The notes under the pieces: generated by a model
Seen by the model: only the letters and a program-made list of their open reading frames with translations
Database searches by the model: none
Told to the model about the DNA's origin: nothing
Translations under genes and position numbers: made by a program
Assembly (NCBI GenBank): GCA_000092065.1
Contig: CP000582.1
DNA: 64,000 nucleotides
Origin: Ostreococcus lucimarinus
Taxonomy: Eukaryota
Reading direction: 5' to 3' (one strand)
Shown here: piece by piece, positions 8,640 through 58,733 of the stretch
Numbering within the stretch: the first letter of the stretch is position 1
Layout: each line of letters starts with the position of its first letter

Positions 8640-8668
8640 CTTTTTGCTTCACGCCTGTCGGCTTCGCG

Positions 8669-8799
8669 GGAAAAATTTATATATCGCCCCTTTAGAGAGT
8701 ACCTACACACATGACGAGTCATGAACCGTGGATATATACGTATTTAATACGTATCATGTGTGTAGGTACTCTCTAAAGGGGCGATATATAAATTTTTCC
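8669..8799. mobile_element. Foldback element, about 130 bp. It is essentially two inverted copies of the 46-bp terminus GGAAAAATTTATATATCGCCCCTTTAGAGAGTACCTACACACATGA, and belongs to the same TIR family as the MULE-like element at 24620.
   Basis: A near-perfect palindrome seen directly. It shares its termini with 24620-24700, 25383-25515 and 50662-50714. It lies in the 3' flank of eIF2alpha. Confidence 0.6.
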
Positions 8800-8867
8800 A
8801 CTGTTCAGAGCAAAAAGAACCTTAGGCATACAAACAAATGGAGTGTTGTACTTCAAGTATGATTCGT

Positions 8868-10049
8868 CTACAATTCTACTTCACCCATCGTATCATCATC
8901 AGTATCGCTACCGCGTTCTTCCACTTTGTTCAAGTTTGTGATTTGCTCAGCAAGAAGTTTGTCGTCACGTTCGCTCACAACTCGCGCGCTTTCTTTTATC
9001 AGTAACTTTCCGCCTTTAGATGTGATGTATTCCTAAGATTTTATCAAGTCTTTGCGATGTGTACACTAAATTATTCTCACCTGTAAGACACTTATGGCTT
9101 TATCCACCAAACTGATTCCAAACTCCCGTTCAGACGTTTGAGTTGAAAGAACATACAGTGGAGAAGCGACTAAAGACATCTTCACTTTGCAATCTTCCGT
9201 CGAGACAAGTTCGGCAGCACGCATAGCACTCTTAATATGGAGAACGCCGTCGTACTGGAAACAAGTCAACTCAACGTCAGCTCTGATTTTTAGCGGCTGT
9301 GGTGTCATCCGTCTTCGAATATCTTTGAGCAGCGTAAGGGCAACTGATTCGTCAACTGTTTGATTATCTTCGTCTCCAGATGCACGAAATTCTGCGATCT
9401 CTCGGTGAAGTAAGCTGGAGTCCATGACAAACATTTTGAATGCATCGAATGCGTGACCATACTTCCTATAGAGAGGCCAACCAATGGACTACAAAAGGGT
9501 CACAGTCCGCAGCAACAAGTTTGGACACAGTATACCTTGTATAATGTTTCGGGAAGCGTCCCTGTCGTCTCCGAAACGTGTCTGATGATAGAATGAACCA
9601 CCTTGCTTTTGTTGAACTTGATCTCACATGCTTCAACATCTTCAGGGGACACTCGTCTGAATGATAGTGAGTGACTGCAAAGAACTTCAGTACGTGCATA
9701 CCTTTTTGAAAGGTCAATGTAACCCTTCTCTTCGTCAACACGCAGCACCATCGCTGGCTCAATTCTACCGACCTGGAAGCAAACTAAGAATTATCTTCCT
9801 GGAAAATGCTGCGGTACAGATCCTACCTTTATGAGCTTCGAAACTGAACGAATACGTCTTCTGGTCAGTTCTGACAACAAAATCATGCCTTCAATGTTGT
9901 CATATTCCAGTAGCTGAACGTAAGCACCCATTTCTGCTATGCTTTTGACCTATCTCACAGCATTCGAAATAGGAAGCTAGCAGTATGACGAGCGTGTTTA
10001 CCTGTACCATAACAACCTGGTCGATCTCTGGAAACCTCTCGGCGTACAT
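8868..10049 (-). CDS. Translation initiation factor eIF2 alpha, 6 exons at 10002..10049, 9826..9948, 9702..9772, 9536..9656, 9081..9488 and 8868..9032 (311 aa).
   Basis: [71 protein letters not shown] and [20 protein letters not shown] match the S1 domain and the Ser51 region ([11 protein letters not shown]). An acidic C-terminal tail is present. All introns have GT...AG boundaries with consistent phase. Confidence 0.85.
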
Positions 10050-10745
10050 TCTACACTCAGGGGCCTTCATTGCGAAGTAAGGTCAACTCAAGCTGACGAA
10101 CAGGGGGCAACTAACCATGTTGTAGTAGAGCACTTTTTTGTTTTTCACGTTCTTGCGCTGTCCGCTTCTGCGCTCGGTTGGCTGTGCGCTTGTGCGGGTT
10201 CTTTTTGTTTTGTTTTTAGTAACATTTTTTATTTTTTTGTCTTAGATTGTGTTCTTTATAGTCGATGTGAATGGTTCAATACGATCAAATATGACATGCT
10301 GCACCGCGCCTCGCTTTGTCTCGGTTGCCCTGAGCAACTGGGACGACCAGTCGCTCCAGTCGTCACGTCGCTCCAAGTGTGTCAGGCAGCATAGCACGGA
10401 CGACTGCATATGATGTGTGCGGATATCACAAGACCTTTGTGTGTACTGCAGCCGACAATCTCTCATCGCAGGTTGGTCCGGACTTCGGCGCGTAAAACCA
10501 CCAGTGAAACGTCTTTCTCGCCTCGGGTCGTCGACGTCGAAAGTTTTGAGGCGTACGGACAGGCACGAATAGCATCGATGAACAAATGCGCAACGAAATT
10601 TAATTTTGCGCAGATAATCTCATCGCAAGAAGACGGAGCGAGATTTTCGATCGAGCGGGTGAGTTAAGTTGAGCAGCTCCCGAAAACACTGACAGTAGCA
10701 AAGGAAGCAAAACTCGACTTAGCAGAAGGTGTACCGAGACTGTAT

Positions 10746-11252
10746 ATGATGCGACTTCGCAATAAAGGTGGTCGTCTTCAATTCGATGAGATGAATTATC
10801 ACGGCCTTTCCTCTCAATCGCTCAGTTCTGTTTCAGAGCTAGACTGGTATGCGTTATTCGTATTTGACAGCTCAAATAGGCGTTGTGACACTTAAGATTC
10901 CAGGTTCATCGCTGTATCCAGGGCTACATTCTCAGAAGAACAATTTCCTTCACACGATGATATTGAAGTATTTCGGATCCCAGGTGTGGGATCTATAAAA
11001 TCCAAGAAGCTCAGAAATATTCACCTCTGACAGGACATGTTGCCATCAATCTCAATAAAGGCACGTGGCATGCTGGTCCCCTTTTTAGCGTAAGTATCGT
11101 GATTCGAATGCTGTGTCTCTGAATCTGATGGTTGTGAATATAAGGAAGACGAGCGGGATTTCTTAAACCTCGAACTGATGGATACAAACACGAAAGATCG
11201 TTATGGTCACAAGTATGAGGACAGTGGAACTCGTTTCACAATAGAACTGTGA
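10746..11252 (+). CDS. Possible ureidoglycolate hydrolase-like (cupin) protein, multi-exon.
   Basis: The exon fragment HVAINLNKGTWHAGPLF...DFLNLELMD resembles the GVWHHPL core of ureidoglycolate lyase. Exon structure is not resolved. Confidence 0.2.
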
Positions 11253-11507
11253 CGATGGTGTAGCATCATTTTGTAAGTATCCATTACTATCGCACAAACA
11301 GGCAGTATTACCGTAGCTATAGTCCATCAGGAATATACCAACTGACTAGCAACACTTGTAGAGACACTTACCCCGCATCCGCGCAACCACCAAACCTCAT
11401 TTCCACACTATCACGCCACTTCCTGCAGCGTGCAGCGAGGGCGAGAGAGTACCGAAGACTAGATCCTTCCGTACTGCACGTATAATTAGCACACTTGAGA
11501 TACAAGA

Positions 11508-12362
11508 ATGGAGATTGCTTCTAAATATCAGGAGATAATTCGCGAAGTCATCAAAAATGTATCCGTACGTTGCCACGGGCTTTCACGCCAGTCCAAGTGT
11601 TCAGTACCACAAACAGGCAGAATTCACAGCGGAACACGTGAACGGGGAAGTTTTGAAACAACTCGAAAAGGCACGTACATTACAAGCGCTTGTTTCACGT
11701 TCTTGAACATCGTGGCAATAGTCGTGGGAACATAAATTGCTTCAGTCTGGCGCTCTTTCCGTGAACTCCGGTCTGAAAACCGCGCCGATAATACCTCACA
11801 GGGGTGACGCTTGCAGCAAAAGCATCGACGAGGATGACAAGTTCGTAGCACTTCAACTCGCTTCAACTTGTAGACTCACTGTCTTCATAGTAAACTGACA
11901 ACTGGAACGAGTGAACTTCAAGAAGTTGGACACGCAGCACCCAACCCCAAGGTAATACTTTTTCAACGGGTTATTTCAATATGTATTAAACAAGGTCATA
12001 CTCATAGGACGAGACGGGCACCAAACGAAAGGTTGAAATGTCGTGTTGTGATTATTTCAACTTCTTACTTTGCTTGTAGCGTGAAACTGACAAACCAGCC
12101 GTGCCTGATCTCGGCCAGGACGAAGTGATAAGCACAGATAGCGAAGATGATAATCTTGGTAAGCATTCACCTTTCATCGATAATCGTCTGTCATATTTTG
12201 AGTGTAGAAACGGAACCTGTTACTTCAAATTTGGTGCTTAGTCAGTTTGAGAAAGTGGGGAGAACAAAGAATAAATGGAAGTGTGCGTTCAGGGATGGTG
12301 TCATGTTACTAAATGGGACTGAGTATGTGTTCGGTAAGGCTACTGCGGAATTTCTTTGGTGA
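11508..12362 (+). CDS. TFIIA large subunit (TFIIA alpha/beta, TOA1-like), multi-exon.
   Basis: N-terminal exon MEIASKYQEIIREVIKN and C-terminal exon KNKWKCAFRDGVMLLNGTEYVFGKATAEFLW match the conserved N- and C-terminal domains of TFIIA-L. An acidic DEVISTDSEDDNLETE tract precedes the C-terminal exon. Interior exon boundaries are approximate. Confidence 0.6.
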
Positions 12363-12497
12363 CTTTTGTTCGTTCTCTTGTCCATTGTTACTAGAAATCT
12401 TTTTGTGCGACAAGCTGCGTATTTCTTCGTAGCAATATTTTGATTGTTACGGAAGACCGAGCAAATCGCTCTGTTATTAAAGCGTTCCCCCAACTCG

Positions 12498-13010
12498 CTA
12501 CAAAGAAGTAAGCGCTCTTCGACGACCTACTTCGTCTTCTAGCATGGCGTTTGCTGACTTAAGGAGACCAGAATAGTCATGCGAAGCTATCCGTAGCAGT
12601 TCAAGAAGGCAGTGCTTTATGTCGACAATTCGGACGTCTGAAGTAGTCTCAAATTTCATGCACCTGTGAAACGAACAGTATGCCGAGTCGAATTGTAACT
12701 GTCGACGAACTTGCTGATACCCACTCGAACTTGCCTCAGTTTCGAAGTTTGGAGAAGCTGTCTTTGCTCTCAGCAGAAGTTTTCGAAAGTTTGAGCTACC
12801 AGGGCGCGCGTCGCATTGACACTTCAACTCGGTGATTCTTGAGCGGGCGCGGTTGATTTCATGAGTCGCACCCTCGACATCTCGCTTGAGACTAGACATC
12901 TCTTTTTCATAAGCACGGCAAGCGGCAACGAGTTCTGTTAGCTTTTCTACGTTCACGGCCTTTTTCACTGAACAAAACTTTAAGAGTATCTTTAGTTTGA
13001 TAAACTGCAC
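12498..13010 (-). CDS. Hypothetical coiled-coil protein.
   Basis: 170-aa ORF with heptad-like charged segments and no recognisable motif. Confidence 0.15.
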   Translation of the reverse strand: MQFIKLKILLKFCSVKKAVNVEKLTELVAACRAYEKEMSSLKRDVEGATHEINRARSRITELKCQCDARPGSSNFRKLLLRAKTASPNFETEASSSGYQQVRRQLQFDSAYCSFHRCMKFETTSDVRIVDIKHCLLELLRIASHDYSGLLKSANAMLEDEVGRRRALTSL

Positions 13011-13265
13011 GCACTGCTAGATATTTGCATGTCTTCTTCCGAAATTCGTAGATGATCCTAAAGCGCGTCAGTTCTACACGAACTTCGAACTTCTTCAAAG
13101 TATACCTGCACGCTCTTCAGCAAATTGTCTTCGAACATCGTCAACCGTGACTTTGGTTTGAGCGCGACGTGCGCGTTGCGAGTCTAGTATAGAAGGTTTT
13201 ACGATATCATATACAGCCATATATGACTGAGGGCCTTGACAACAACATGTTTCGTTTCTTTGATT

Positions 13266-13419
13266 TTATATGTCATATCCGTATGTATTACTTTCCACGC
13301 CCTAATGTATGGGGTGTTAGCACTTCTCGATCGCCACGCGCGCGTTGTGGCGTCGTCGCGAGTTATTAGCACTTCGACGGCGCGCACATATTAGGGACGT
13401 GGAAAGTAATACATACTGA
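13266..13419. mobile_element. MITE family B, copy 1. About 150 bp, a near-palindrome with termini CAGTATCCGTATGTATTACTTTCCACG ... CGTGGAAAGTAATACATACTG.
   Basis: A second near-identical copy sits at 57736-57882. The internal sequence is a perfect hairpin around CGCCACGCGCGCGTTGTGGCG. Confidence 0.65.
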
Positions 13420-13556
13420 TATGTGAGTAAAAATAAGTCGTCGCGCGGTTTGTCGAAGAGTTCAGCTGACCCTGACGAGAAAGCAGGCAGCAACATAGAA
13501 GGCGATAAACCATCGCGGCAGCTTCAGGGTCCGCGGGAAGGACTTTACTTGGACCG

Positions 13557-24290: not shown

Positions 24291-24619
24291 CTATCAAATC
24301 GACTTGCACCTGGTTTTGGTAGCATCGATCCGTGTACACGAATATAACCGTAGGAAGGCGATAATTCAGCGCATATTTGCTTAGAGTGTTAACGCATTCG
24401 GCGCGATCGACTGAATATTACCGTAAAACGGTACACGTACTTGAATATGATTCTGCGAATCCTGAATTTGTTCGCTCGTACGCAAGTCGTCTACGATAGC
24501 TCACAGTGATGAGCGTCGCTGTTCGTTCCGCCGTGCAGCTGCAACCCGAACAGCAACGATTCCCCGGCCGGATACAGCTCAACCGCTCTCGATTTGCCAA
24601 CCAAGACTATTTCTGAGAG

Positions 24620-25515
24620 GGAAAAATTTATATATCGCACCTTTAGAGAGTACCTACACACATGACGAGTCATGAACCGTGGATATATACGTATTTTACA
24701 CCGTTTAGTTCTAAAAGTTTGATTCTACAACATCTACGAGAGGTAGTTCCTAATGCTAATTTGCTCGCCTTTGCTTGCCTTGCGTTTGTGTTCATCGACC
24801 ATCTTCTCGTGCCAGCCCCTCTTCCTGCTCAACGCCGTATCACCCGCCGCGCCTCTCATAGGAATCGCAACCAGGTTCGACATACCGAGCACACCATCGC
24901 CGTCCATTTTGCTATTCTTGGACATGTTTTGAGACATCTCTCTGTGTGTCTTCAAGTTGTGCATGAAACGTTGAAGTTTGTTGAGCGTGTCTGTGATGTG
25001 TGCGGCTTCATCAGGCTCGAACGTGAATTCTGGATCGAGTGCGAGTTGTGTCAACTCGGCGGTCATTTGTGCCCAGCGTAACTTTACACTCACGTTGTCG
25101 AAAGCTGCTCCAAGGCTTCTCCGATGAGTTGGTAGAGAGGCTTCAACATTATCTGGAATCGCTGGAGTCACGTGTCTCCTGGAATCGCTGGAGTCACGTG
25201 TCTCCTGGAGCCCGGACGATACGTGAAGAGCATCACCGAACGGATCGTCGAAGGGATCATCGTCGCACTCGTCTTCCATCCGACCATCGCCCGCACGCGC
25301 GACGACAACTGGCGCGACAGGCGTGGAAAAGACACGAGGCGAACGTGTTTTTCACCAAGGTAGGAATACTCTATTGTAGATGGCACTAAACGGTGTAAAA
25401 TACGTATATATCCACGGTTCATGACTCGTCATGTGTGTAGGTACTCTCTAAAGGTGCGATATATAAATTTTTCCTTCTGAGGTACTCTCTAAAGGTGCGA
25501 TATATAAATTTTTCC
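24620..25515. mobile_element. Mutator-like (MULE-type) non-autonomous DNA transposon of about 0.9 kb. It has ~88-bp terminal inverted repeats and a 9-bp target-site duplication TTCTGAGAG (24611..24619 and 25516..25524).
   Basis: The left end GGAAAAATTTATATATCGCACCTTTAGAGAGTACCTACACACATGACGAGTCATGAACCGTGGATATATACGTATTTTACACCGTTTAGT is exactly reverse-complemented at 25383..25515. Flanking 9-bp direct repeats are present. Internally there is a 26-bp tandem duplication (25155..25206) and a 41-bp tandem duplication of the right terminus (25441..25522). Confidence 0.65.
24734..25279 (-). CDS. Hypothetical ORF carried inside the MULE-like element.
   Basis: 181-aa ORF lying wholly between the TIRs, acidic at the N-terminus, with no motif I recognise. 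It may be a captured fragment rather than a functional gene. Confidence 0.2.
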   Translation of the reverse strand: MEDECDDDPFDDPFGDALHVSSGLQETRDSSDSRRHVTPAIPDNVEASLPTHRRSLGAAFDNVSVKLRWAQMTAELTQLALDPEFTFEPDEAAHITDTLNKLQRFMHNLKTHREMSQNMSKNSKMDGDGVLGMSNLVAIPMRGAAGDTALSRKRGWHEKMVDEHKRKASKGEQISIRNYLS

Positions 25516-40007: not shown

Positions 40008-41027
40008 CTAGCTATGTCGCGTCATCTCAAATCTTGCTTGATGGAATAAGGATATCAGGTACAACGTTTGATTTTTCTCAGAGCAAGCGAAACTCAGAGA
40101 GTACTCAATATCTGAAAGTCCTCTGAGCAACCGTGCTCTCGTTCCCGCCGCCATATGCAGGGTAAGCAAAGACTCAGATAGAGGCTTGACGATGTCGACC
40201 AGCGCAAAGTTCTGAGTACATTTCAGACGATTAAAATGTTCAAAAGTCCCTTGGAGTGGTTCGTTGAGGAGAAATCGCAACAGCTCGTCCACTTGGAGCT
40301 GGCCAACATGACCTGTTATCAAATGAATTGCGTCATCTGTGACAACAGATGCCGACAGACTGACACTCTGAAGTATGTTGACGGTCTTCCGCATATCACC
40401 TTCGCCAAGTTTCTGGATTGTCGCAAGTGAGTTATCAGAAATACTGAAGTTTTCGCTATTCACGATATGCCGCAGTCGCTGCAACATATCTCCTGACGCA
40501 ATTGGAGAGAATCTAAATTTCGTGCACCTGCTTTGCAGCGCTGGGATGACTTTGGAGGCGTAATTACATATCAAACAAAAGCGCGTATGCTGAGTGTACT
40601 TTTCCATAATTCTCCGCAGCGCGAACTGTGCGTCTTTGGTCATGCTGTCACACTCGTCCATAATAACGAGTTTGAATGTCGTCGAAAAGGGTCGCATGGT
40701 CGATGCAAATGATTGGATTTCATCACGAACGACATTAATACCACGCGCATCGGAGGCGTTCAGTTCAAGAACCATATTAGAAAAGTTCAATCCATAAAGC
40801 TCTTTAGCGAGCGCCAAGATTGTGGACGTCTTTCCCGTTCCCGGGGGGCCGTGGAACAGTAAGTGCGGAAGCTGGCCGCCATCCGCAAACTTGTTGATGA
40901 CATCAACTATCGCTTTATGTGCAACCACTTCACTCAAACCCACTGGCCGATATTTTTCCGTCCACGGAAGAGCTCTATTCACGCTCGGATCGTCCACACA
41001 AACCATTTCGCCTGAAGCAGGGCGCAC
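40008..41027 (-). CDS. Replication factor C small subunit (RFC5-like clamp-loader AAA+ ATPase).
   Basis: PWTEKYRPVGLSEVVAHK, Walker A GPPGTGKTS, Walker B VIMDECDSM, sensor/arginine-finger region RFCLICNYASKVIPALQSRC. The stop is 23 bp from the eIF6 stop. Confidence 0.8.
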   Translation of the reverse strand: MRPASGEMVCVDDPSVNRALPWTEKYRPVGLSEVVAHKAIVDVINKFADGGQLPHLLFHGPPGTGKTSTILALAKELYGLNFSNMVLELNASDARGINVVRDEIQSFASTMRPFSTTFKLVIMDECDSMTKDAQFALRRIMEKYTQHTRFCLICNYASKVIPALQSRCTKFRFSPIASGDMLQRLRHIVNSENFSISDNSLATIQKLGEGDMRKTVNILQSVSLSASVVTDDAIHLITGHVGQLQVDELLRFLLNEPLQGTFEHFNRLKCTQNFALVDIVKPLSESLLTLHMAAGTRARLLRGLSDIEYSLSFACSEKNQTLYLISLFHQARFEMTRHS

Positions 41028-41508
41028 GTCGGCGTCGTTCAGATATCTCGAAAGTATGTAATCAGCCAGCCAAAATCACTTTCGTTACCTTTGTGTCTCG
41101 AGCGTCTTCGGTGTTTGCTGTTGCCAAGCAGAACGCGCACGGTATGCAGAGGCTGAGTGCACGTATTCAAAAACTTGAAACCAACGAGTCCCGCGGTCTC
41201 AGCGGGGTCTGTACGTTTAGCGGGTTTATACATATCATATCGTGTTTCTTCGCGCACGGTATGGATTTACAACTGGGGCTTTCAAGCCCCTTTCTATTAC
41301 GCGAAATTACACGATATTTCGCGAAATCATATCAACATAGGTATTCTTGTAGTATAATACGATACTCATATTATAGGAGTAGAAGGCCTAATACTTATGT
41401 GTATTATCTGACACAGTTCTAATAACTCCACGAGAAATGAGCGCGAACCTGTGTTGGCAGGGCGTTCGTCGGCGGCGGCAGTGAGACGCGATAAACGTGC
41501 TGGCGGAT
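41028..41508. promoter_or_regulatory. Bidirectional promoter region between RFC5 (-) and RPL36 (+). It contains the E2F-like palindromic element ATATTTCGCGAAAT and a second ACGCGAAA element.
   Basis: Divergent start codons at 41027 (minus) and 41509 (plus). TTTCGCGAAA at about 41321..41330 resembles the E2F consensus TTTSGCGC. An AT-rich block lies at 41330..41400. Confidence 0.4.
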
Positions 41509-42060
41509 ATGAAGGATAACATTTCGGTCGGTCTCGACAAGGGACACGCGGTGACTAAGCGCGAGCTTGCCGCGAAGCCTGGTTCGCGTAAGGGGGTGTG
41601 TATTGCTTTCTACTTTCACGGGTTTTTTCTAACTGCGTGCGTAGCGTTGTGGTAAGCGTGTTGGAATGATTCGCGGCCTCATCCGGGAAGTGGCAGGCTC
41701 AGCACCTTACGAAAAGCGTCTCGTCGAACTGCTCAAGAACGGGCGGGACAAACGTGCCCTGAAGTTGGCAAAGAGAAAGGTGCGTACCATATCATTCTTT
41801 AGGGCTTTGCGCGCGAGAAGCACCCGTCGACCCCGTTCTCGATCTGCATTCGTGGAGTGGACTTATGAATCGATAATACTCTGCAGTGCATTGTTCATGG
41901 CCGTCTATTTTCGTCGATTGCCGTGCGCGTCCGCCGACTAACGACTGAACTTTCCTGCCAACAGCTTGGGACGCACCTGCGCGCCAAGAAAAAGCGAGAG
42001 GAAATGGGAAACCTTATGCGAAAGGCTAGCCGAAAAGCGCCTGCTCCCGAGAGCAAGTAA
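41509..42060 (+). CDS. RPL36: 60S ribosomal protein eL36 (RPL36), 3 exons at 41509..41595, 41645..41779 and 41965..42060 (105 aa).
   Basis: [29 protein letters not shown] | [45 protein letters not shown] | [21 protein letters not shown]... matches eL36 end to end. GTGTGT and GTGCGT donors, AG acceptors, all phase 0. Confidence 0.75.
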
Positions 42061-42475
42061 AACGTAAATAGATTCAAGTTCGTAACTTCAATCGATTGTA
42101 GTTCGTCATTGAAGACTTCACAACTTTACAAAAGACGATCACTACCCCGACAGCAAACAAACCACGTTCACTGTCCATCACCGGCGACTCTTCGGTAAAC
42201 TCTCTCGCTACGATGAAGTAACTGGTGACACTGGTGTTCTACTAGCTCGTACGCATTCCTGAAATCACGAAAAACTAATCCTACAGCTGCCTCGTCTAAG
42301 ATCTCAGCTAGCCCCTCGAATCTCGAGCCGGCTCCACTGCGCGTCGTTCAAAGTTGCGCGACACAAACGAAGCGCTCTTTCTACGGAATCCTATACAAAG
42401 GCATCGACATTCACTCGACTTCGTACCATCATCGTACGCAACTCCTGTTTCGCGTGTTTCTGGAACCTAGTCAAG

Positions 42476-43484
42476 ATGATTCCGGGGGAAGAAACCGGTG
42501 CTTCAGTGACAGTGGCACGTTTAGAGGACGAAACTATCATTTTCGATTTGAAAGGAGTTGATGTCAGCCTAGCAAACGCACTCAGGCGGCTAATGATAGC
42601 GGATGTCCCAACTGTTTCAATTGACTTAGTCGAGGTGATAGAAAACTCCTCTGTTCTGTGTGATGAGTTCTTGGCACACCGCTTGGGTCTGATCCCCCTT
42701 GACAGCACAAAAGCTTCAGAACTCGTGAAGCCTTACGAGTACACTGGAGACGATGATACCGCAACAGATGTGCACTTGGAACTCAATGTGCGATGTCAGA
42801 GCGACCAGACAAGGGACGTCACGAGCGACGATCTGATCTCACACGACGAAAGAGTAAAACCAGTGAGCTTTGGGGGGACAGGTGGTGGTTCTGCGAAGTC
42901 AGGCGGGATTCTGATAGCAAAACTACGCAAAAACCAGCAGTTATCGTTGAAATGTATCGCAAGAAAAGGCACTGGTAAGGATCATGCCAAGTGGTCCCCA
43001 GTCGCTACGGCCGTGTTTAAGTACACTCCCTTGATTGACATCAATCACGGCCTCCTGAACTCGCTAAATGGTAAGAGCCAGACTAGAATTCTTTACCACA
43101 ACTTTAAACGTCACAATGCAGGACCGGAAAAGGCAGCGATCGTGGAGAGCGATCCATCCAAAATGTTTAAATATGACGCCGACACGGATACTTTTACTCT
43201 CACCTCTCCAGAGTCATGTACTTACGATGGTGAAGTTATGAAGAAGGTAAGATTCAACATTCGTTTCATCTATATAAATGAACTCTTGACCTTGACAGGT
43301 AAACGAGCTCGGAAAGCCTGGATTGATTGATGTGCGGCCCGGTCTGGACTGTTTTACTTTCATCGTTGAGTCAACTGGAGTATTGAAAGTTGAGGAGGTT
43401 GTTCTACAGGCAGTGCATATTTTACAAAGTAAACTGGATACTATAGGAGTAAGTTCGTGTTTTGACAAATTAGAAATTCAATAA
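42476..43484 (+). CDS. RNA polymerase I/III shared subunit RPAC1 (AC40, alpha-like), 2 exons at 42476..43246 and 43299..43484.
   Basis: DVSLANALRRLMIADVPTVSIDLVEVIENSSVLCDEFLAHRLGLIPL and TGKDHAKWSPVATAVFKY match RPAC1. GTAAGA donor after ...GEVMKK, acceptor at 43298. An alternative GTAAGT donor at 43449 leaves the C-terminus uncertain. Confidence 0.7.
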
Positions 43485-43727
43485 TTATGTGTCGTAGGGT
43501 GAACTTGAAACGATAGAAAGTGACTCATTCTAGGTTTGTAATTGTTACTGCGAACTGCCATAGGTCACACAAAAGCCACTCACAGTGAGTCGTTTACTCT
43601 CGTCAAAGCATTCAAAGTTTCAACCATGTGTCTGCTTTTCATTTCTTCCGCGTATCGACGACTTTCGTGTACGTCCATTCGAAATGGGCAGAACGAGTAA
43701 CAATATTTGAATTGCAGATAAAAGACT

Positions 43728-44113
43728 GCAGGTAATAGTGGTGAAAGTATAAAGTCAACCACGGGGCGAACCGGAAGTAGTGGTGTCAACAGTTTGATTG
43801 CTTCACTATTCAATCGTCCCAATCCCTGCACGACTGCCGTGCGTACGATTCGACGACGATAGAATCGCTGCAAGATCTCAGAAATTTCGGACCGTGAGTT
43901 GAGTTTAGACAACATTTGTGCCAACATGTAACCATCTTCGAATGCCAGACCAGTTCCTTGACCAATGTTTGGCATAGTTGCGTGACACGAGTCTCCAAGC
44001 AAGACGACATTTCCTTTCGCCCAGCTTTTCCTTATACTTGGCGTTCGATCGAGCAAGTCACGTTGGATTATACCCCCCTCGTCCGTGGCAGCTATCAGGT
44101 TCCTTACTTCAGG
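43728..44113. repeat. Segment A, a 386-bp exact tandem duplicate of 44888..45274 within the monooxygenase gene.
   Basis: Identical sequence and identical ORFs (43810..44010 equals 44969..45169). Confidence 0.8.
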
Positions 44114-44114
44114 T

Positions 44115-44883
44115 GCTGGCCGCCATCCGCAAACTTGTTGATGACATCAACTATCGCTTTATGTGCAACCACTTCACTCAAACCCACTGGCCGATATTTT
44201 TCCGTCCACGGAAGAGCTCTATTCACGCTCGGATCGTCCACACAAACCATTTCGCCTGAAGCAGGGCGCACGTCGGCGTCGTTCAGATATCTCGAAAGTA
44301 TGTAATCAGCCAGCCAAAATCACTTTCGTTACCTTTGTGTCTCGAGCGTCTTCGGTGTTTGCTGTTGCCAAGCAGAACGCGCACGGTATGCAGAGGCTGA
44401 GTGCACGTATTCAAAAACTTGAAACCAACGAGTCCCGCGGTCTCAGCGGGGTCTGTACGTTTAGCGGGTTTATACATATCATATCGTGTTTCTTCGCGCA
44501 CGGTATGGATTTACAACTGGGGCTTTCAAGCCCCTTTCTATTACGCGAAATTACACGATATTTCGCGAAATCATATCAACATAGGTATTCTTGTAGTATA
44601 ATACGATACTCATATTATAGGAGTAGAAGGCCTAATACTTATGTGTATTATCTGACACAGTTCTAATAACTCCACGAGAAATGAGCGCGAACCTGTGTTG
44701 GCAGGGCGTTCGTCGGCGGCGGCAGTGAGACGCGATAAACGTGCTGGCGGATATGAAGGATAACATTTCGGTCGGTCTCGACAAGGGACACGCGGTGACT
44801 AAGCGCGAGCTTGCCGCGAAGCCTGGTTCGCGTAAGGGGGTGTGTATTGCTTTCTACTTTCACGGGTTTTTTCTAACTGCGTG
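44115..44883. repeat. Segment B, a 769-bp exact copy of 40872..41640. That source covers the RFC5 5' end, the RFC5/RPL36 bidirectional promoter, RPL36 exon 1 and part of its intron 1. The copy is inserted between the two A copies.
   Basis: Identical ORFs 40919..41422 and 44163..44666. The junctions show 2-5-bp microhomologies (GC/GCTGG at 44113/44115, CTGC/TGCAG at 44883/44888). Confidence 0.8.
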
Positions 44884-46899
44884 CGTGCAGGTAATAGTGG
44901 TGAAAGTATAAAGTCAACCACGGGGCGAACCGGAAGTAGTGGTGTCAACAGTTTGATTGCTTCACTATTCAATCGTCCCAATCCCTGCACGACTGCCGTG
45001 CGTACGATTCGACGACGATAGAATCGCTGCAAGATCTCAGAAATTTCGGACCGTGAGTTGAGTTTAGACAACATTTGTGCCAACATGTAACCATCTTCGA
45101 ATGCCAGACCAGTTCCTTGACCAATGTTTGGCATAGTTGCGTGACACGAGTCTCCAAGCAAGACGACATTTCCTTTCGCCCAGCTTTTCCTTATACTTGG
45201 CGTTCGATCGAGCAAGTCACGTTGGATTATACCCCCCTCGTCCGTGGCAGCTATCAGGTTCCTTACTTCAGGTGCCCAATCCTTAAAAGTGTTTGTGAGC
45301 GTTTTCTTCGATGGCGTAGACGTGGGTGTGCGAGGTAGCGCCTTTACAAATGCATACCACTGCACTCGACCAAAACGATCTGGACAAACCACAAAATAGT
45401 GATCAGGTCCAATGAAGGCACTATACCCAAGATCGAAATAATCTGAAGAGTTCGAAATCGGCAGACCGCTGTAAAGTTTGAAGCCAGTGTATGAAGCTAT
45501 CGCAAAACGATCATTAACTGTACTTGAAACTTCATCGAACATTTGCGAACGCACCGTACTCCAAATACCATCTGCGCCTATTAAGATGTCGCACGACAGT
45601 GTTTCTCCATTCTCAAGAAAAACTTCTACTCCTTTGTCTGATTCGAAGTACCTTGATACTGCAGTCCCCATTCTCACTACTTCTCTATCGGTAGAGACTC
45701 GATTTAATTCTTCTAGCAAAACGGATTGAAGATCCGATCTATCGATACAAATCGAAAACGGTAGACTGTCCTCGCATGGTATTTGTGTTATGGCATCAAA
45801 TGTAAACATCCATTCGGAGGTGATGCCGTCTCGGATCCCACTCTTTGTAGACCAAAACGGCCGACTAGCTGCTCGTATATTCTTCGCGAGTTCATCACTG
45901 ATAGCATGCGCAACACCCATGCCATTGCTAGCGAGCTGAATGGGACCACCTAACGGTTTATACTCTTTTGTTCTCTCCAGCACAGTAACGTTCATTCCCT
46001 GCTGAACGAGACATATCGCAGCAAATAGCCCCCCAAGACCTCCTCCGGCTATGATGATGTCGACATTTGCCTTCATGTCGGTGCAAGCGCGGACGCCCGC
46101 ACGCGGGCTTTTAAAATCGCGCGGCCATCCTTTTCCGGACGACCTTTGATAACACTGGCGGCTATTTTGGTCGAGCTTCACGTGCCTCGCCACACGTGTT
46201 TTCAGCATCATGAGGCAGCAAATACTGACCAGTGCGAGATGCGAGTCCTAAAGGGGTCAGTCTACGCACAACGAAGAACTGATGTCCCTCAGTACCCACG
46301 GCGCACGCTGCCGCGTGACTTCTCGACGGTCAACCGGTGTAATATTCCCACATGCGATATCACCCATGTGAGATATTGTCCGTCGCGGTTTATGGTCGCA
46401 TTTTATACTTCAGTCCATCAGTTGATGCGGTCAATTTGTATCATAACATGGAAAAATAGAGTGAAAAATCGTGTTGGAAATGTCACAGCGGATAACGATC
46501 CACTGAGGCAGGCGATACTCGTCACAGCGAGCGCGCTTCACCTCAGACGGCCCCACGCAGACGCAAACCTATCGTACAAAATGCTTACCACGTGTTCCTT
46601 CACACGCTTCAGTGTACCGGTAGCTAGAGAGCTCTGCACTTCGCGGCGCTCCCAGCGCACCGGTTCCCGCGTTGCGCGTGCGAAACCCTCCGCCGCGTCC
46701 AACTTCGAACTAAATAACGCTATGAAAGCTACCGCAACTCTAGGTGCGTATACAGTAATTGTGGGATTTTTTTGACGTTCTTACGCCTATCCACGTGCAT
46801 TCGCACTGTGGCGACTCGGAAATCTGCGTGCCTAGTGGCTGACCGCGTTTTAATCCGATCCGAACAGTTGCGACCCTCCCGTCGCAAGCGGCGATTGCC

Positions 46900-50284: not shown

Positions 50285-50661
50285 CGTCGCTCTTTGTGGC
50301 CTTTCGTTTTCTTTGACGCGACGGGTCGGTTGCCTACGAGATATAGCCACTATTACCACGCGCTACCGTCTTCGAAATTAACGGCGACTATTCGAAAAAC
50401 CGCGACGAGTTCGCCCTTCGCTAGCCGGGGCTTTGTTGGCAGCTGGGAGGATTCTTAAAGGACCGTTTGCGTGTTTGCTATCAGGCCGACTTCAGGCCGG
50501 CAAAAGCATGTTATATATTAGCTAATTCCAATCACAGTAACATATGTGACAGAGACCGCAAAATACGCCATCTTCACGACTCCGATTCATATACATGTGA
50601 ATATATTCAAACTCATAAAGTGCCTATCAGTCCAGAGCTTATCGTTACACCGCGCTGCCAT

Positions 50662-50714
50662 CATGACTCGTCATGTGTGTAGGTACTCTCTAAAGGGGCG
50701 ATATAAATTTTTCC
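50662..50714. repeat. Solo terminal fragment of about 53 bp from the MULE/foldback TIR family (CATGACTCGTCATGTGTGTAGGTACTCTCTAAAGGGGCGATATAAATTTTTCC). It lies immediately upstream of MCM7.
   Basis: Matches the right terminus of the elements at 8669 and 24620. Confidence 0.55.
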
Positions 50715-57735: not shown

Positions 57736-57882
57736 CAGTATCCGTATGTATTACTTTCCACGCCCTAATGTATGGGGTGTTAGCACTTCTCGATCGCCAC
57801 GCGCGCGTTGTGGCGTCGTCGCGAGTTATTAGCACTTCGACGGCGCGCACATATTAGGGACGTGGAAAGTAATACATACTGA
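57736..57882. mobile_element. MITE family B, copy 2. It is near-identical to 13266..13419 and is flanked by an 8-bp direct repeat TAACATTA.
   Basis: Same termini and internal palindrome as copy 1. The flanks are ...t[TAACATTA]a-element-a[TAACATTA]ct. Confidence 0.65.
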
Positions 57883-58733
57883 TAACATTACTAAAAGCAA
57901 TATCATATCATATGATATCGACTCAACATGCTATACAAGTATTGTCCTTGAAATTTTGTGTCCTGAGGTGTTGTGTTCGACAGTTCGACGCTGAGGGTAA
58001 CAGGCGCCGCTCGTCAACGCACACCTGTGGCAGTTCCTCTACGCCTGTGTTCTGACTATCAAACGCTACAGATAGCTCACATTTCTCGCAAGCTGGTGAT
58101 CGCTCATCTCGAGCACAGCGCATTCTTTGAATTCGTGTTGCAGTACCTCACACCAACTTCAAATGCATGCCAAGTTTGTTGTACTTGAAATACAGGCGAG
58201 CTATCTTCACGTAGCGCATCCGAAGCAGACTAATTATTATAAGTAGGGACGAATTACTCCGCACGTGACTGCCGAAAAATTCTGCAAATGCTCACTCTTA
58301 AAAGACGTACGCCGGTGTCCAGCCTCTTCTTTCACTATCTTACCCTATCGGTGTAGACAATGCTTCTAAGCGTAGGACAGCATGAAGTAATCGGTGAGTC
58401 ACTTGAAAAAGTCTCAGAATGCAAAGCTTAAAATGCAGATACAGGCAAAGAAGATCCGAAGCATAAACAATTAGTTTTACTGAAAACTAGCTGTGACGCA
58501 GCTGCAACAAGTTTCAGATTACAGGGATCAATTTCTAAACGATACAAATTTGAAACTCGCCCGAATGTAAAAATGTGACCCGGTTATTCGATTATTAGCC
58601 ATAGCTACCAGATCTCGCGGTCGATGCATGTTGACTAGGTACTAGGTACATTATGCGTGCAAAGTTGAAGTGGCTCTTTCACTTGCGAACGAGAACACTA
58701 ATATGTGGGAGTTTCTACTTTCGATGCTTTAAG

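What the first reader, a model, noticed from the sequence alone, without database searches (positions are those of the whole stretch)
43728..45274. Tandem duplication with a templated insertion inside the FAD-monooxygenase gene (A-B-A structure with microhomology junctions)
A 386-bp segment of the monooxygenase gene is present twice, 43728-44113 and 44888-45274, both identical. Between the copies sits a 769-bp exact copy of 40872-41640, a locus 3 kb upstream that contains the first 52 codons of RFC5, the whole RFC5/RPL36 bidirectional promoter, RPL36 exon 1 and part of its first intron. Both novel junctions show 2-5-bp microhomology. This is the signature of replication template switching (FoSTeS/MMBIR-type) or NHEJ with templated filler. 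It splits the flavoprotein coding sequence and places an ectopic, complete promoter plus RPL36 exon 1 inside the gene, reading outward toward the gene's 5' end. Exact identity of all copies means it is either very recent or a contig mis-join.
Basis: seen in the sequence. Interest (0 to 1): 0.7.

Follow-up and report, generated by a model that had tools for sequence, protein, structure and literature searches.

The report
Private copy-paste insertion in algal monooxygenase gene
A 1,159-base block (a re-copied piece of a flavoprotein gene plus a copy of a neighbouring promoter) sits inside that gene in this one sequence of a marine green picoalga; it is an ordinary, very young rearrangement of a known kind, or a laboratory artefact, and only the original reads can tell which.

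Summary
The A-B-A structure is real in the sequence. A (43727-44116) equals A' (44886-45275), 390 bp exact. B (40871-41642) equals B' (44115-44886), 772 bp exact, same orientation. The net insertion is 1,159 bp. Junction microhomology is 2 bp (GC) and 1 bp (T), not 2-5 bp, and is no more than chance (P about 0.11).

The host is a Mamiellales-like marine green alga. About 30 independent metagenome contigs that are 99.6-99.99% identical to the window were fetched. None of the 24 tested carries either junction, and every contig that spans both ends of A has a single A. The junction 34-mers and nine junction-spanning or derived protein products are absent from the public collections. The wild-type products are on about 150-175 contigs. 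So this is a private, derived, undiverged event.

It fits a known class: a local two-jump, or "cycle of templated insertion". Equivalently, it is a 3,244-bp tandem duplication followed by a 2,085-bp deletion.

The insertion replaces the gene's conserved last 48 codons with 28 unrelated ones. It also puts a copy of the RFC5/RPL36 divergent promoter region inside the gene, with the RPL36 side reading antisense.

A repeat-mediated assembly mis-join is unlikely because the junctions share almost no sequence. A chimeric molecule made in vitro cannot be excluded without reads. Low interest.

The parts
40871..41642 (.). B: source template (772 bp), retained at its original place
   Evidence: Exact match to 44115-44886. 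It is single-copy in all public loci that cover it.
40008..41027 (-). RFC5 orthologue (RFC small subunit); its first 157 nt lie in B
   Evidence: Pfam AAA + Rep_fac_C. Best PDB match is human RFC5, E 2.8e-92.
41028..41508 (.). RFC5/RPL36 divergent intergenic spacer (presumed bidirectional promoter), wholly inside B
   Evidence: It lies between the two divergent start codons. Promoter function is inferred, not shown. It is the most variable stretch among wild haplotypes.
41509..41595 (+). RPL36 exon 1 (29 codons), followed by a 49-nt intron 41596-41644 (GT..CTAAC..AG)
   Evidence: The spliced product matches Pfam Ribosomal_L36e positions 2-78, E 3e-28. Sequence.
43727..44116 (-). A: proximal copy of monooxygenase codons 313-442, now an orphan 3' fragment joined to the true 3' end (43580-43726)
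   Evidence: Exact match to 44886-45275. Its ORF 43580-43975 gives the 131-aa C-terminal fragment.
44115..44116 (.). Junction J1 (end of A | start of B'), 2-bp microhomology GC
   Evidence: Overlap of the two maximal exact matches. Sequence.
44115..44886 (.). B': inserted copy of B (RFC5 5' fragment 44115-44271 minus strand; spacer copy 44272-44752; RPL36 exon-1 copy 44753-44839 plus strand; intron copy from 44840)
   Evidence: 100% identical to B. It is absent at this place in all 24 loci tested for the junctions.
44886..44886 (.). Junction J2 (end of B' | start of A'), 1-bp microhomology T; a new CAG acceptor lies at 44888-44890
44886..45275 (-). A': distal copy of codons 313-442, still joined to the 5' part of the gene
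44799..46211 (-). Derived monooxygenase ORF (470 aa; 425 aa from the ATG at 46076): residues 1-442 of the 490-aa wild type plus 28 residues read from B'
   Evidence: The alignment with homologues shows loss of the conserved VFxLQFxYCYSFCP tail.
44104..44271 (-). Chimeric small ORF: RFC5 residues 1-52 + HLK + stop, running from B' into A
   Evidence: This product is not in the 15-billion-protein collection.

Best explanation
This is a genuine, very young structural mutation private to the sequenced strain or lineage. During DNA synthesis (fork restart, break-induced replication, or repair synthesis at a break) the nascent strand reached position 44116 in the monooxygenase gene. It then switched 3,244 bp backwards to 40871 and copied 772 bp across the RFC5/RPL36 divergent promoter region. 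It switched again, 2,085 bp forwards, to 43727 and carried on. That re-copied 390 bp of the gene.

The result is a local two-jump, or 'cycle of templated insertion'. The net gain is 1,159 bp and both templates stay in place.

Shown: the anatomy, the derived and private status, and the zero divergence of the copies. Inferred: the in-vivo origin and the enzymology.

Predicted consequence: the ZEP-like group-A flavoprotein monooxygenase keeps its catalytic core (residues 1-442 of 490). It loses its conserved 48-residue C-terminal tail and gains 28 unrelated residues. A copy of a ribosomal-protein promoter now points antisense through the 5' two-thirds of the gene. The gene is therefore probably impaired or silenced.
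For: Exact A/A' and B/B' copies in direct orientation, all within 4.4 kb. Of the roughly 30 independent contigs of the same species fetched from JGI, ENA and Logan (99.6-99.99% identical to the window), none of the 24 tested has J1 or J2, and 19 of those 24 show the wild-type join at the right end of A. Three later contigs also align colinearly across A once the insert is removed. With the 1,159 bp removed, the window aligns end to end with these contigs.

The junction 34-mers are absent from JGI metagenome contigs. All three start-codon versions of the derived protein (425, 469 and 470 aa), two C-terminal fragments of it and four junction-spanning small ORFs are absent from a 15-billion-protein collection. 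The wild-type products are present on 62+19+94 and 74+75 contigs.

Outside the insertion the window is a normal haplotype. Over about 41 kb of comparison it has one private SNP (50801) and no private indels. That argues for an accurate assembly.

The junctions share only 1-2 bp, so an overlap or k-mer assembler could not have created them from wild-type reads (inference). The class is well documented: strings of copied templates that return to the host and re-replicate a host segment are called 'cycles', and 'local n-jumps' when the templates are local (PMC7025897). Loss of function is tolerated in nature: a nonsense allele (G347*) occurs in three independent assemblies.
Against: No reads are available, so the physical existence of the junctions in the organism is unproven. 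The structure occurs only in this window. Microhomology (2 bp and 1 bp) is no more than chance, so the hallmark used to argue for FoSTeS/MMBIR is missing. There are no point mutations in the 1,159 copied bases, whereas error-prone break-induced synthesis often leaves some (established knowledge; weak evidence at this length). The source record of the window was not found in the viral or genome collections, and neither junction was found in the JGI metagenome contigs. Its assembly method and coverage are therefore unknown.
Confidence: 0.55

Rival explanations
1. It is an artefact that never existed in the cell. One route is a chimeric molecule made in vitro by polymerase template switching (multiple displacement amplification or PCR of low-input DNA). 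Another is a chimeric long read that survived in a low-coverage consensus. A third is an error or edit in later sequence handling.
For: The structure is unique to this window and absent from every other assembly and collection searched. The copies are perfectly identical. MDA makes intramolecular chimeras between nearby sequences, often with 2-21 nt of complementarity (PMC1855051). The left-most possible J1 breakpoint (44114) coincides with a contig end and adapter-junction hotspot in public Tn5 libraries, although that is probably chance.
Against: More than 85% of MDA chimeras are inverted with deletions. Here both junctions are direct, and two switches are needed that return to the same locus in register. 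A single chimeric molecule rarely wins a consensus. The rest of the compared sequence is base-accurate, with no private indels and no other duplication. A repeat-mediated mis-join is excluded by the 1-2 bp overlap at the junctions. A contig that passes through 772-bp exact repeats implies long reads spanning the whole 1.9-kb structure (inference).
Confidence: 0.33
2. It is real, but arose in two separate steps. First came a simple tandem duplication of 40871-44114 (unit 3,244 bp, junction J1). That step leaves every gene intact and duplicates RPL36 and the Rpb3/AC40-like gene. Later a 2,085-bp deletion (junction J2) removed the second copies and, with them, the 3' end of the intact monooxygenase copy.
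For: The final sequence is exactly what duplication plus nested deletion would give (coordinates). The first step is gene-neutral, so it could persist. Small tandem duplications of 100 bp to 10 kb with microhomology are a known spontaneous class (PMC8654963).
Against: No contig or protein with J1 alone was found. There is zero divergence between the copies. Two independent rare events in one private lineage are less parsimonious than one complex event. PCAWG argues that such clustered junctions usually arise together.
Confidence: 0.1
3. It is a mobile-element capture (Pack-MULE or Helitron type), a retrocopy, or a laboratory gene-targeting scar (single-crossover integration that gives A-insert-A).
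For: The region does hold small mobile elements that differ between haplotypes. A-insert-A is the topology left by ends-in plasmid integration (established knowledge).
Against: There are no terminal inverted repeats (0 inverted pairs) and no short target-site duplication. B' carries a promoter and an intron, so it is not a retrocopy. There is no vector, marker or foreign sequence, because all 1,159 bp are native.
Confidence: 0.02

Closest known systems
Cycles of templated insertions / local two-jumps (PCAWG structural-variant classes, Li et al. 2020, PMC7025897)
   Same: A copied template is inserted, the original template is retained, and the string returns to the host upstream of the departure point so that a host segment is re-replicated. 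There are two phased junctions. This class is known to inactivate genes by duplicating internal exons and inserting pieces of other genes.
   Different: It was described in human tumours, usually with kilobase-to-megabase segments and often with templates from other chromosomes. Here everything lies within 4.4 kb in a haploid picoalga, in a germline-equivalent genome. Copy-number support cannot be checked.
FoSTeS / MMBIR complex duplications (replication template switching; established knowledge)
   Same: Two template switches over short distances, direct orientation, copy-number gain, and no long homology at the junctions.
   Different: The defining microhomology is not above chance (2 bp and 1 bp). 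No breakpoint-associated point mutations are seen.
Small tandem duplications from polymerase-theta end joining of aborted homologous-recombination intermediates (Kamp et al. 2021, PMC8654963)
   Same: A tandem duplication in the 100 bp-10 kb range, minimal microhomology, and an occasional templated insert at the junction. Plant-lineage end joining is noted for complex templated filler.
   Different: Those templated inserts are short and copied from the immediate flanks. Here the insert is 772 bp, copied from 2.1-3.2 kb away.
MDA chimeras (Lasken and Stockwell 2007, PMC1855051)
   Same: Intramolecular template switching between nearby sequences with few complementary bases.
   Different: More than 85% of them are inverted with a deletion. 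This structure is direct, duplicative, and needs two switches.

Membership tests
Cycle of templated insertion / local two-jump | Two or more novel junctions phased on one molecule | tested here: met
   J1 (44115/6) and J2 (44886) lie 772 bp apart in one contiguous sequence.
Cycle of templated insertion / local two-jump | The inserted segment is a copy and the template is retained at its origin | tested here: met
   B stays at 40871-41642 and is identical to B'.
Cycle of templated insertion / local two-jump | The string returns to the host upstream of the departure point, re-replicating a host segment | tested here: met
   390 bp of the host (A) are present on both sides of B'.
Cycle of templated insertion / local two-jump | Derived relative to the ancestral arrangement | tested here: met
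   None of the 24 loci tested has J1 or J2, and all contigs spanning A have a single A and a single B. The derived products are absent from the collection and the wild-type ones are present.
Cycle of templated insertion / local two-jump | Copy-number gain of each segment seen in read depth | not testable with these tools
   No reads are available.
FoSTeS / MMBIR | Junction microhomology (typically 2-5 bp or more) in excess of chance | tested here: not met
   2 bp and 1 bp. The chance probability of such a pair is about 0.115.
FoSTeS / MMBIR | Templates in close physical proximity and more than one switch | tested here: met
   Switches of 3,244 bp backwards and 2,085 bp forwards.
FoSTeS / MMBIR | Point mutations clustered near breakpoints from error-prone synthesis | tested here: not met
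   There are 0 differences in 1,159 copied bases. This is weak evidence at this length.
FoSTeS / MMBIR | Dependence on replication or break-induced replication factors | not testable with these tools
   It needs genetics.
Polymerase-theta end-joining tandem duplication with templated insert | The insert is short and templated from sequence immediately flanking the break | tested here: not met
   The insert is 772 bp from 2.1-3.2 kb away, against the short flank-derived inserts in PMC8654963.
Polymerase-theta end-joining tandem duplication with templated insert | The organism encodes polymerase theta | not tested
   No such gene is in the window, and the rest of the genome is not available.
MDA chimera | Inverted orientation with an intervening deletion (more than 85% of cases) | tested here: not met
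   All copies are direct, and the repeat finder reports 0 inverted pairs. Criterion.
MDA chimera | The library was made by displacement amplification | not testable with these tools
   The provenance of the window is unknown.
Repeat-mediated assembly mis-join | The junction lies inside sequence shared by the two joined regions (at least k-mer or overlap length) | tested here: not met
   Only 2 bp and 1 bp are shared. For contrast, public contig L030 shows a join through a 146-bp repeat.
Transposon-mediated capture or retrocopy | Terminal repeats with a short target-site duplication, or an intron-less copy with a poly-A tail | tested here: not met
   There are no inverted repeats. B' contains a promoter and an intron. 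The flanking duplication is 390 bp.

The most novel reading that the evidence does not exclude
The insertion is a real natural allele, and it is one of at least two independent inactivations of this ZEP-like monooxygenase in wild populations. The other is the G347* nonsense allele seen in three assemblies. That would point to ongoing, possibly adaptive, loss of a photoprotection-related enzyme in a cosmopolitan picoalga. Here the loss would have come from copy-paste of a ribosomal-protein promoter, which also creates an antisense transcription unit. That would make it a natural case of regulatory rewiring by a templated insertion.
Probability: 0.12. Interest if true: 0.45.

Novelty: new member of a known kind. 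Interest (0 to 1): 0.22.

Why it matters
If real, it is a clean, base-resolved example of a two-switch templated insertion in a wild or cultured marine picoeukaryote. That group has few structural mutations characterised at this resolution. It shows how one event can truncate a gene and also plant a strong promoter inside it. Together with the natural nonsense allele, it suggests that this conserved ZEP-like monooxygenase is dispensable under some conditions. If it is an artefact, it is a useful warning that exact local duplications in assemblies need read-level support. Either way it does not reveal a new kind of biological system.

Tried and rejected
1. Searching for the junctions elsewhere. 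J1 and J2 34-mers gave no hits in JGI metagenome contigs, and J1 gave none in GTDB genomes or IMG/VR. The wild-type junction was also absent from IMG/VR and GTDB, so the window's source is not in those two collections.

2. Exact-protein look-ups of nine junction-spanning or derived products found none on record. Sensitivity is limited: short-read assemblers would break contigs at A and B if the allele were present.

3. Contig ends near the breakpoints. L019 ends at 44114, and L022 and L023 diverge from the window at 44105, which looked like graph breaks caused by the variant. The tails proved to be Nextera adapter sequence with the 9-bp Tn5 stagger. This was rejected as evidence.

4. Splicing rescue. 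There is no AGGT (or AGGC) in A on the gene strand, so no canonical intron can remove exactly the 1,159 nt.

5. Secondary structure at the four breakpoints. Only the left end of B lies in a hairpin-prone stretch (z -2.76). The left end of A is weaker (z -1.7) and the other two are no better than shuffled sequence. That is too weak to argue for fork stalling.

6. Rfam and tandem-repeat scans of the region found nothing. The bacterial promoter scan is not applicable to a eukaryote.

7. Finding the window's exact source through a rare haplotype protein (DUF212). The closest contigs still differ by a few SNPs.

8. Transposon, retrocopy and engineered-integration readings were rejected on anatomy.
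Full report
**Observation.**
The structure is present as described. The maximal exact matches are A 43727-44116 = A' 44886-45275 (390 bp) and B 40871-41642 = B' 44115-44886 (772 bp). All are in direct orientation and 100% identical. A self-comparison of the whole window finds no other repeat longer than 146 bp, so these copies stand out against a compact, repeat-poor background. The matches overlap by 2 bp at the A|B' junction (GC, 44115-44116) and by 1 bp at the B'|A' junction (T, 44886). The net insertion is 1,159 bp. Its '2-5 bp microhomology' is an overstatement.

**What the pieces are.**
- The interrupted gene lies on the minus strand. It encodes a group-A flavoprotein monooxygenase (Pfam FAD_binding_3). 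PDB relatives align over residues 5-375 of the 445-aa form. JGI labels it 'zeaxanthin epoxidase', but it lacks the plant enzyme's extra domain, so 'ZEP-like' is the safer name.
- A is exactly codons 313-442 of the 490-codon reading frame.
- B holds the first 157 nt of an RFC5 orthologue (best PDB match human RFC5, E 2.8e-92).
- B also holds the entire 481-bp spacer between the divergent RFC5 and RPL36 start codons.
- B also holds RPL36 exon 1 (41509-41595) and all but the last 2 nt of a 49-nt intron (41596-41644). That exon-intron model is supported by a continuous Pfam L36e match across the splice (E 3e-28; sequence).
- The organism is a marine green picoalga related to Mamiellales. The monooxygenase is 54% identical to that of Ostreococcus tauri. 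MCM7 is 68% identical to an Ostreococcus sp. RCC789 transcript and 56% to Micromonas. I could not name the species.

**Comparison with other assemblies of the same species.**
- The reconstructed wild-type protein (insertion removed) is on record exactly. The 445-, 490- and 489-aa start variants occur on 62, 19 and 94 contigs from JGI, ENA, Logan and Tara.
- I fetched 33 loci, about 30 distinct contigs. Those covering the region are 99.6-99.99% identical to the window.
- Every contig that spans A aligns up to 44116 and resumes at 44886, with a 390-bp overlap. That means a single A and a single B. With the 1,159 bp deleted, the window aligns colinearly.
- None of the 24 loci tested contains either junction. 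Nineteen of them carry the wild-type join at the right end of A.
- The junction 34-mers are absent from the JGI metagenome contigs.
- Three start variants of the derived protein, two C-terminal fragments of it, and four small ORFs that span J1 or J2 are absent from the 15-billion-protein collection. The matching wild-type small ORFs are on 74 and 75 contigs.
- The structure is therefore derived and private.
- Region B is the most polymorphic stretch among wild haplotypes, with indels, a 93%-identical variant and an inserted 146-bp element. Yet B' equals the window's own B exactly. The copy was therefore made from this same haplotype, and very recently.
- Outside the insertion the window looks like an ordinary recombinant haplotype. 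Over about 41 kb it has one private SNP (50801) and no private indels.

**Junction statistics.**
Random pairs of positions in this window give 0, 1 or 2 bp of overlap in 56%, 28% and 11% of trials. A pair of junctions with at least 2 bp and at least 1 bp arises by chance with probability about 0.115. The microhomology therefore says nothing about mechanism. Only one of the four breakpoints lies in a clearly hairpin-prone sequence (z -2.76). I treat that as noise.

**Most likely origin.**
- The anatomy is that of copy-paste synthesis with two template switches. The strand leaves at 44116, restarts 3,244 bp behind at 40871, copies 772 bp, leaves at 41642, restarts 2,085 bp ahead at 43727 and continues.
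[quoted passage not shown] With local templates it is a local two-jump (PMC7025897).
- The same product would follow from a 3,244-bp tandem duplication and a later 2,085-bp deletion. The duplication step disrupts no gene.
- Whether the synthesis was fork restart (FoSTeS/MMBIR) or repair synthesis ended by end joining cannot be read from the sequence. End joining of aborted recombination intermediates produces the 100 bp-10 kb tandem duplications described in PMC8654963. The long, distant template fits the replicative models better than polymerase-theta filler. The lack of significant microhomology fits neither model specifically.

**Artefact or real?**
- A classical mis-join is unlikely. Assemblers join sequences through shared k-mers or overlaps, and these junctions share 1-2 bp. 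The junction sequences must therefore have existed in at least one sequenced molecule (inference).
- A contig that traverses 772-bp exact repeats also implies reads longer than the structure (inference).
- The remaining artefact route is a chimeric molecule. Displacement amplification does make local chimeras, but more than 85% of them are inverted with deletions (PMC1855051). This structure is direct and needs two switches back into register.
- Against a real origin, the structure is found nowhere else, and I could not locate the source record.
- I put an in-vivo origin at about two thirds (one-step 0.55, two-step 0.10) and an artefact at about one third.

**Predicted consequences (inferred).**
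- The upstream gene copy reads through A' into the reverse complement of B' and stops at 44799. Residues 1-442 are kept.
- The last 48 residues are replaced by 28 unrelated ones. The lost part includes the VFxLQFxYCYSFCP block, which is conserved in homologues down to 50% identity.
- The catalytic core is retained, so loss of function is probable but not certain.
- No canonical GT-AG intron can remove exactly the inserted block.
- The RPL36-side promoter copy points through A' and the 5' two-thirds of the gene in antisense. Its exon-1 and intron copy meets a new CAG acceptor at 44888-44890, which would give a 35-residue ORF.
- The RFC5-side copy gives a 55-residue ORF that ends three codons into A.
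- A natural nonsense allele (G347*, GGA to TGA, window 44014) occurs in three independent assemblies. Loss of function of this gene is therefore tolerated in the wild.

**Verdict.**
The microhomology argument fails. The event belongs to a well-known kind of structural variant. It is a single private instance whose physical reality needs reads. Interest is low.

Noticed in passing
window 44014 (inside segment A); loci L015, L016, L017: There is a natural nonsense allele of the same monooxygenase (codon 347, GGA to TGA; C to A on the plus strand). It occurs in three independent ENA assemblies and splits the gene into 301/346-aa and 131-aa products. The gene therefore carries loss-of-function alleles in wild populations.
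   Followed up: yes
window 13276-13421 and 57739-57884; L001/L002/L008 at about window 41236: A 146-bp element is present twice in the window at 100% identity. In three other haplotypes a copy sits in the RFC5/RPL36 spacer, inside what is segment B here. It is probably a small mobile (MITE-like) element with polymorphic insertions.
   Followed up: partly
window 24613-25481: An element of about 870 bp is bounded by 97-bp inverted repeats (24613-24709 and 25385-25481, 98% identical). Contigs L025, L026, L028 and L029 jump from 24619 to about 25480. This is either a polymorphic transposon insertion or a collapsed assembly there. Related short copies lie at 8668-8799 and 50661-50714.
   Followed up: partly
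window 8800-13424 versus L028/L029: This 4.6-kb segment is inverted relative to two public 68-kb contigs. The inversion is bounded by the short repeat at 8668-8799 and the 146-bp element.
   Followed up: no
L030 (ENA ERZ27287176 k119_1529702): This public contig joins window 57884 directly to 13276 through the 146-bp repeat. It is either a repeat-mediated mis-join or evidence of a 44.5-kb circular or tandem arrangement. It shows what a true repeat-mediated join looks like, unlike J1 and J2.
   Followed up: no
L015, L022 and L023 contig ends; window 44105-44114: Several public contigs end in untrimmed Nextera (Tn5 mosaic-end) adapter. Two samples share the same adapter junction at 44105, and L019 ends at 44114, which is the 9-bp Tn5 stagger. 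This hotspot coincides with the left-most possible J1 breakpoint, probably by chance.
   Followed up: partly
window 41642-41644 and 44886-44890: The right breakpoint of B falls 2 nt before the acceptor AG of the 49-nt RPL36 intron. In B' the junction recreates a CAG acceptor 3 nt further on.
   Followed up: partly
protein P0003 (homologue, 69% identical): A related algal monooxygenase is deposited in NCBI as 'MAG: Euryarchaeota archaeon' (MBI20082.1). It is evidently a eukaryotic contig mis-binned into an archaeal MAG.
   Followed up: no
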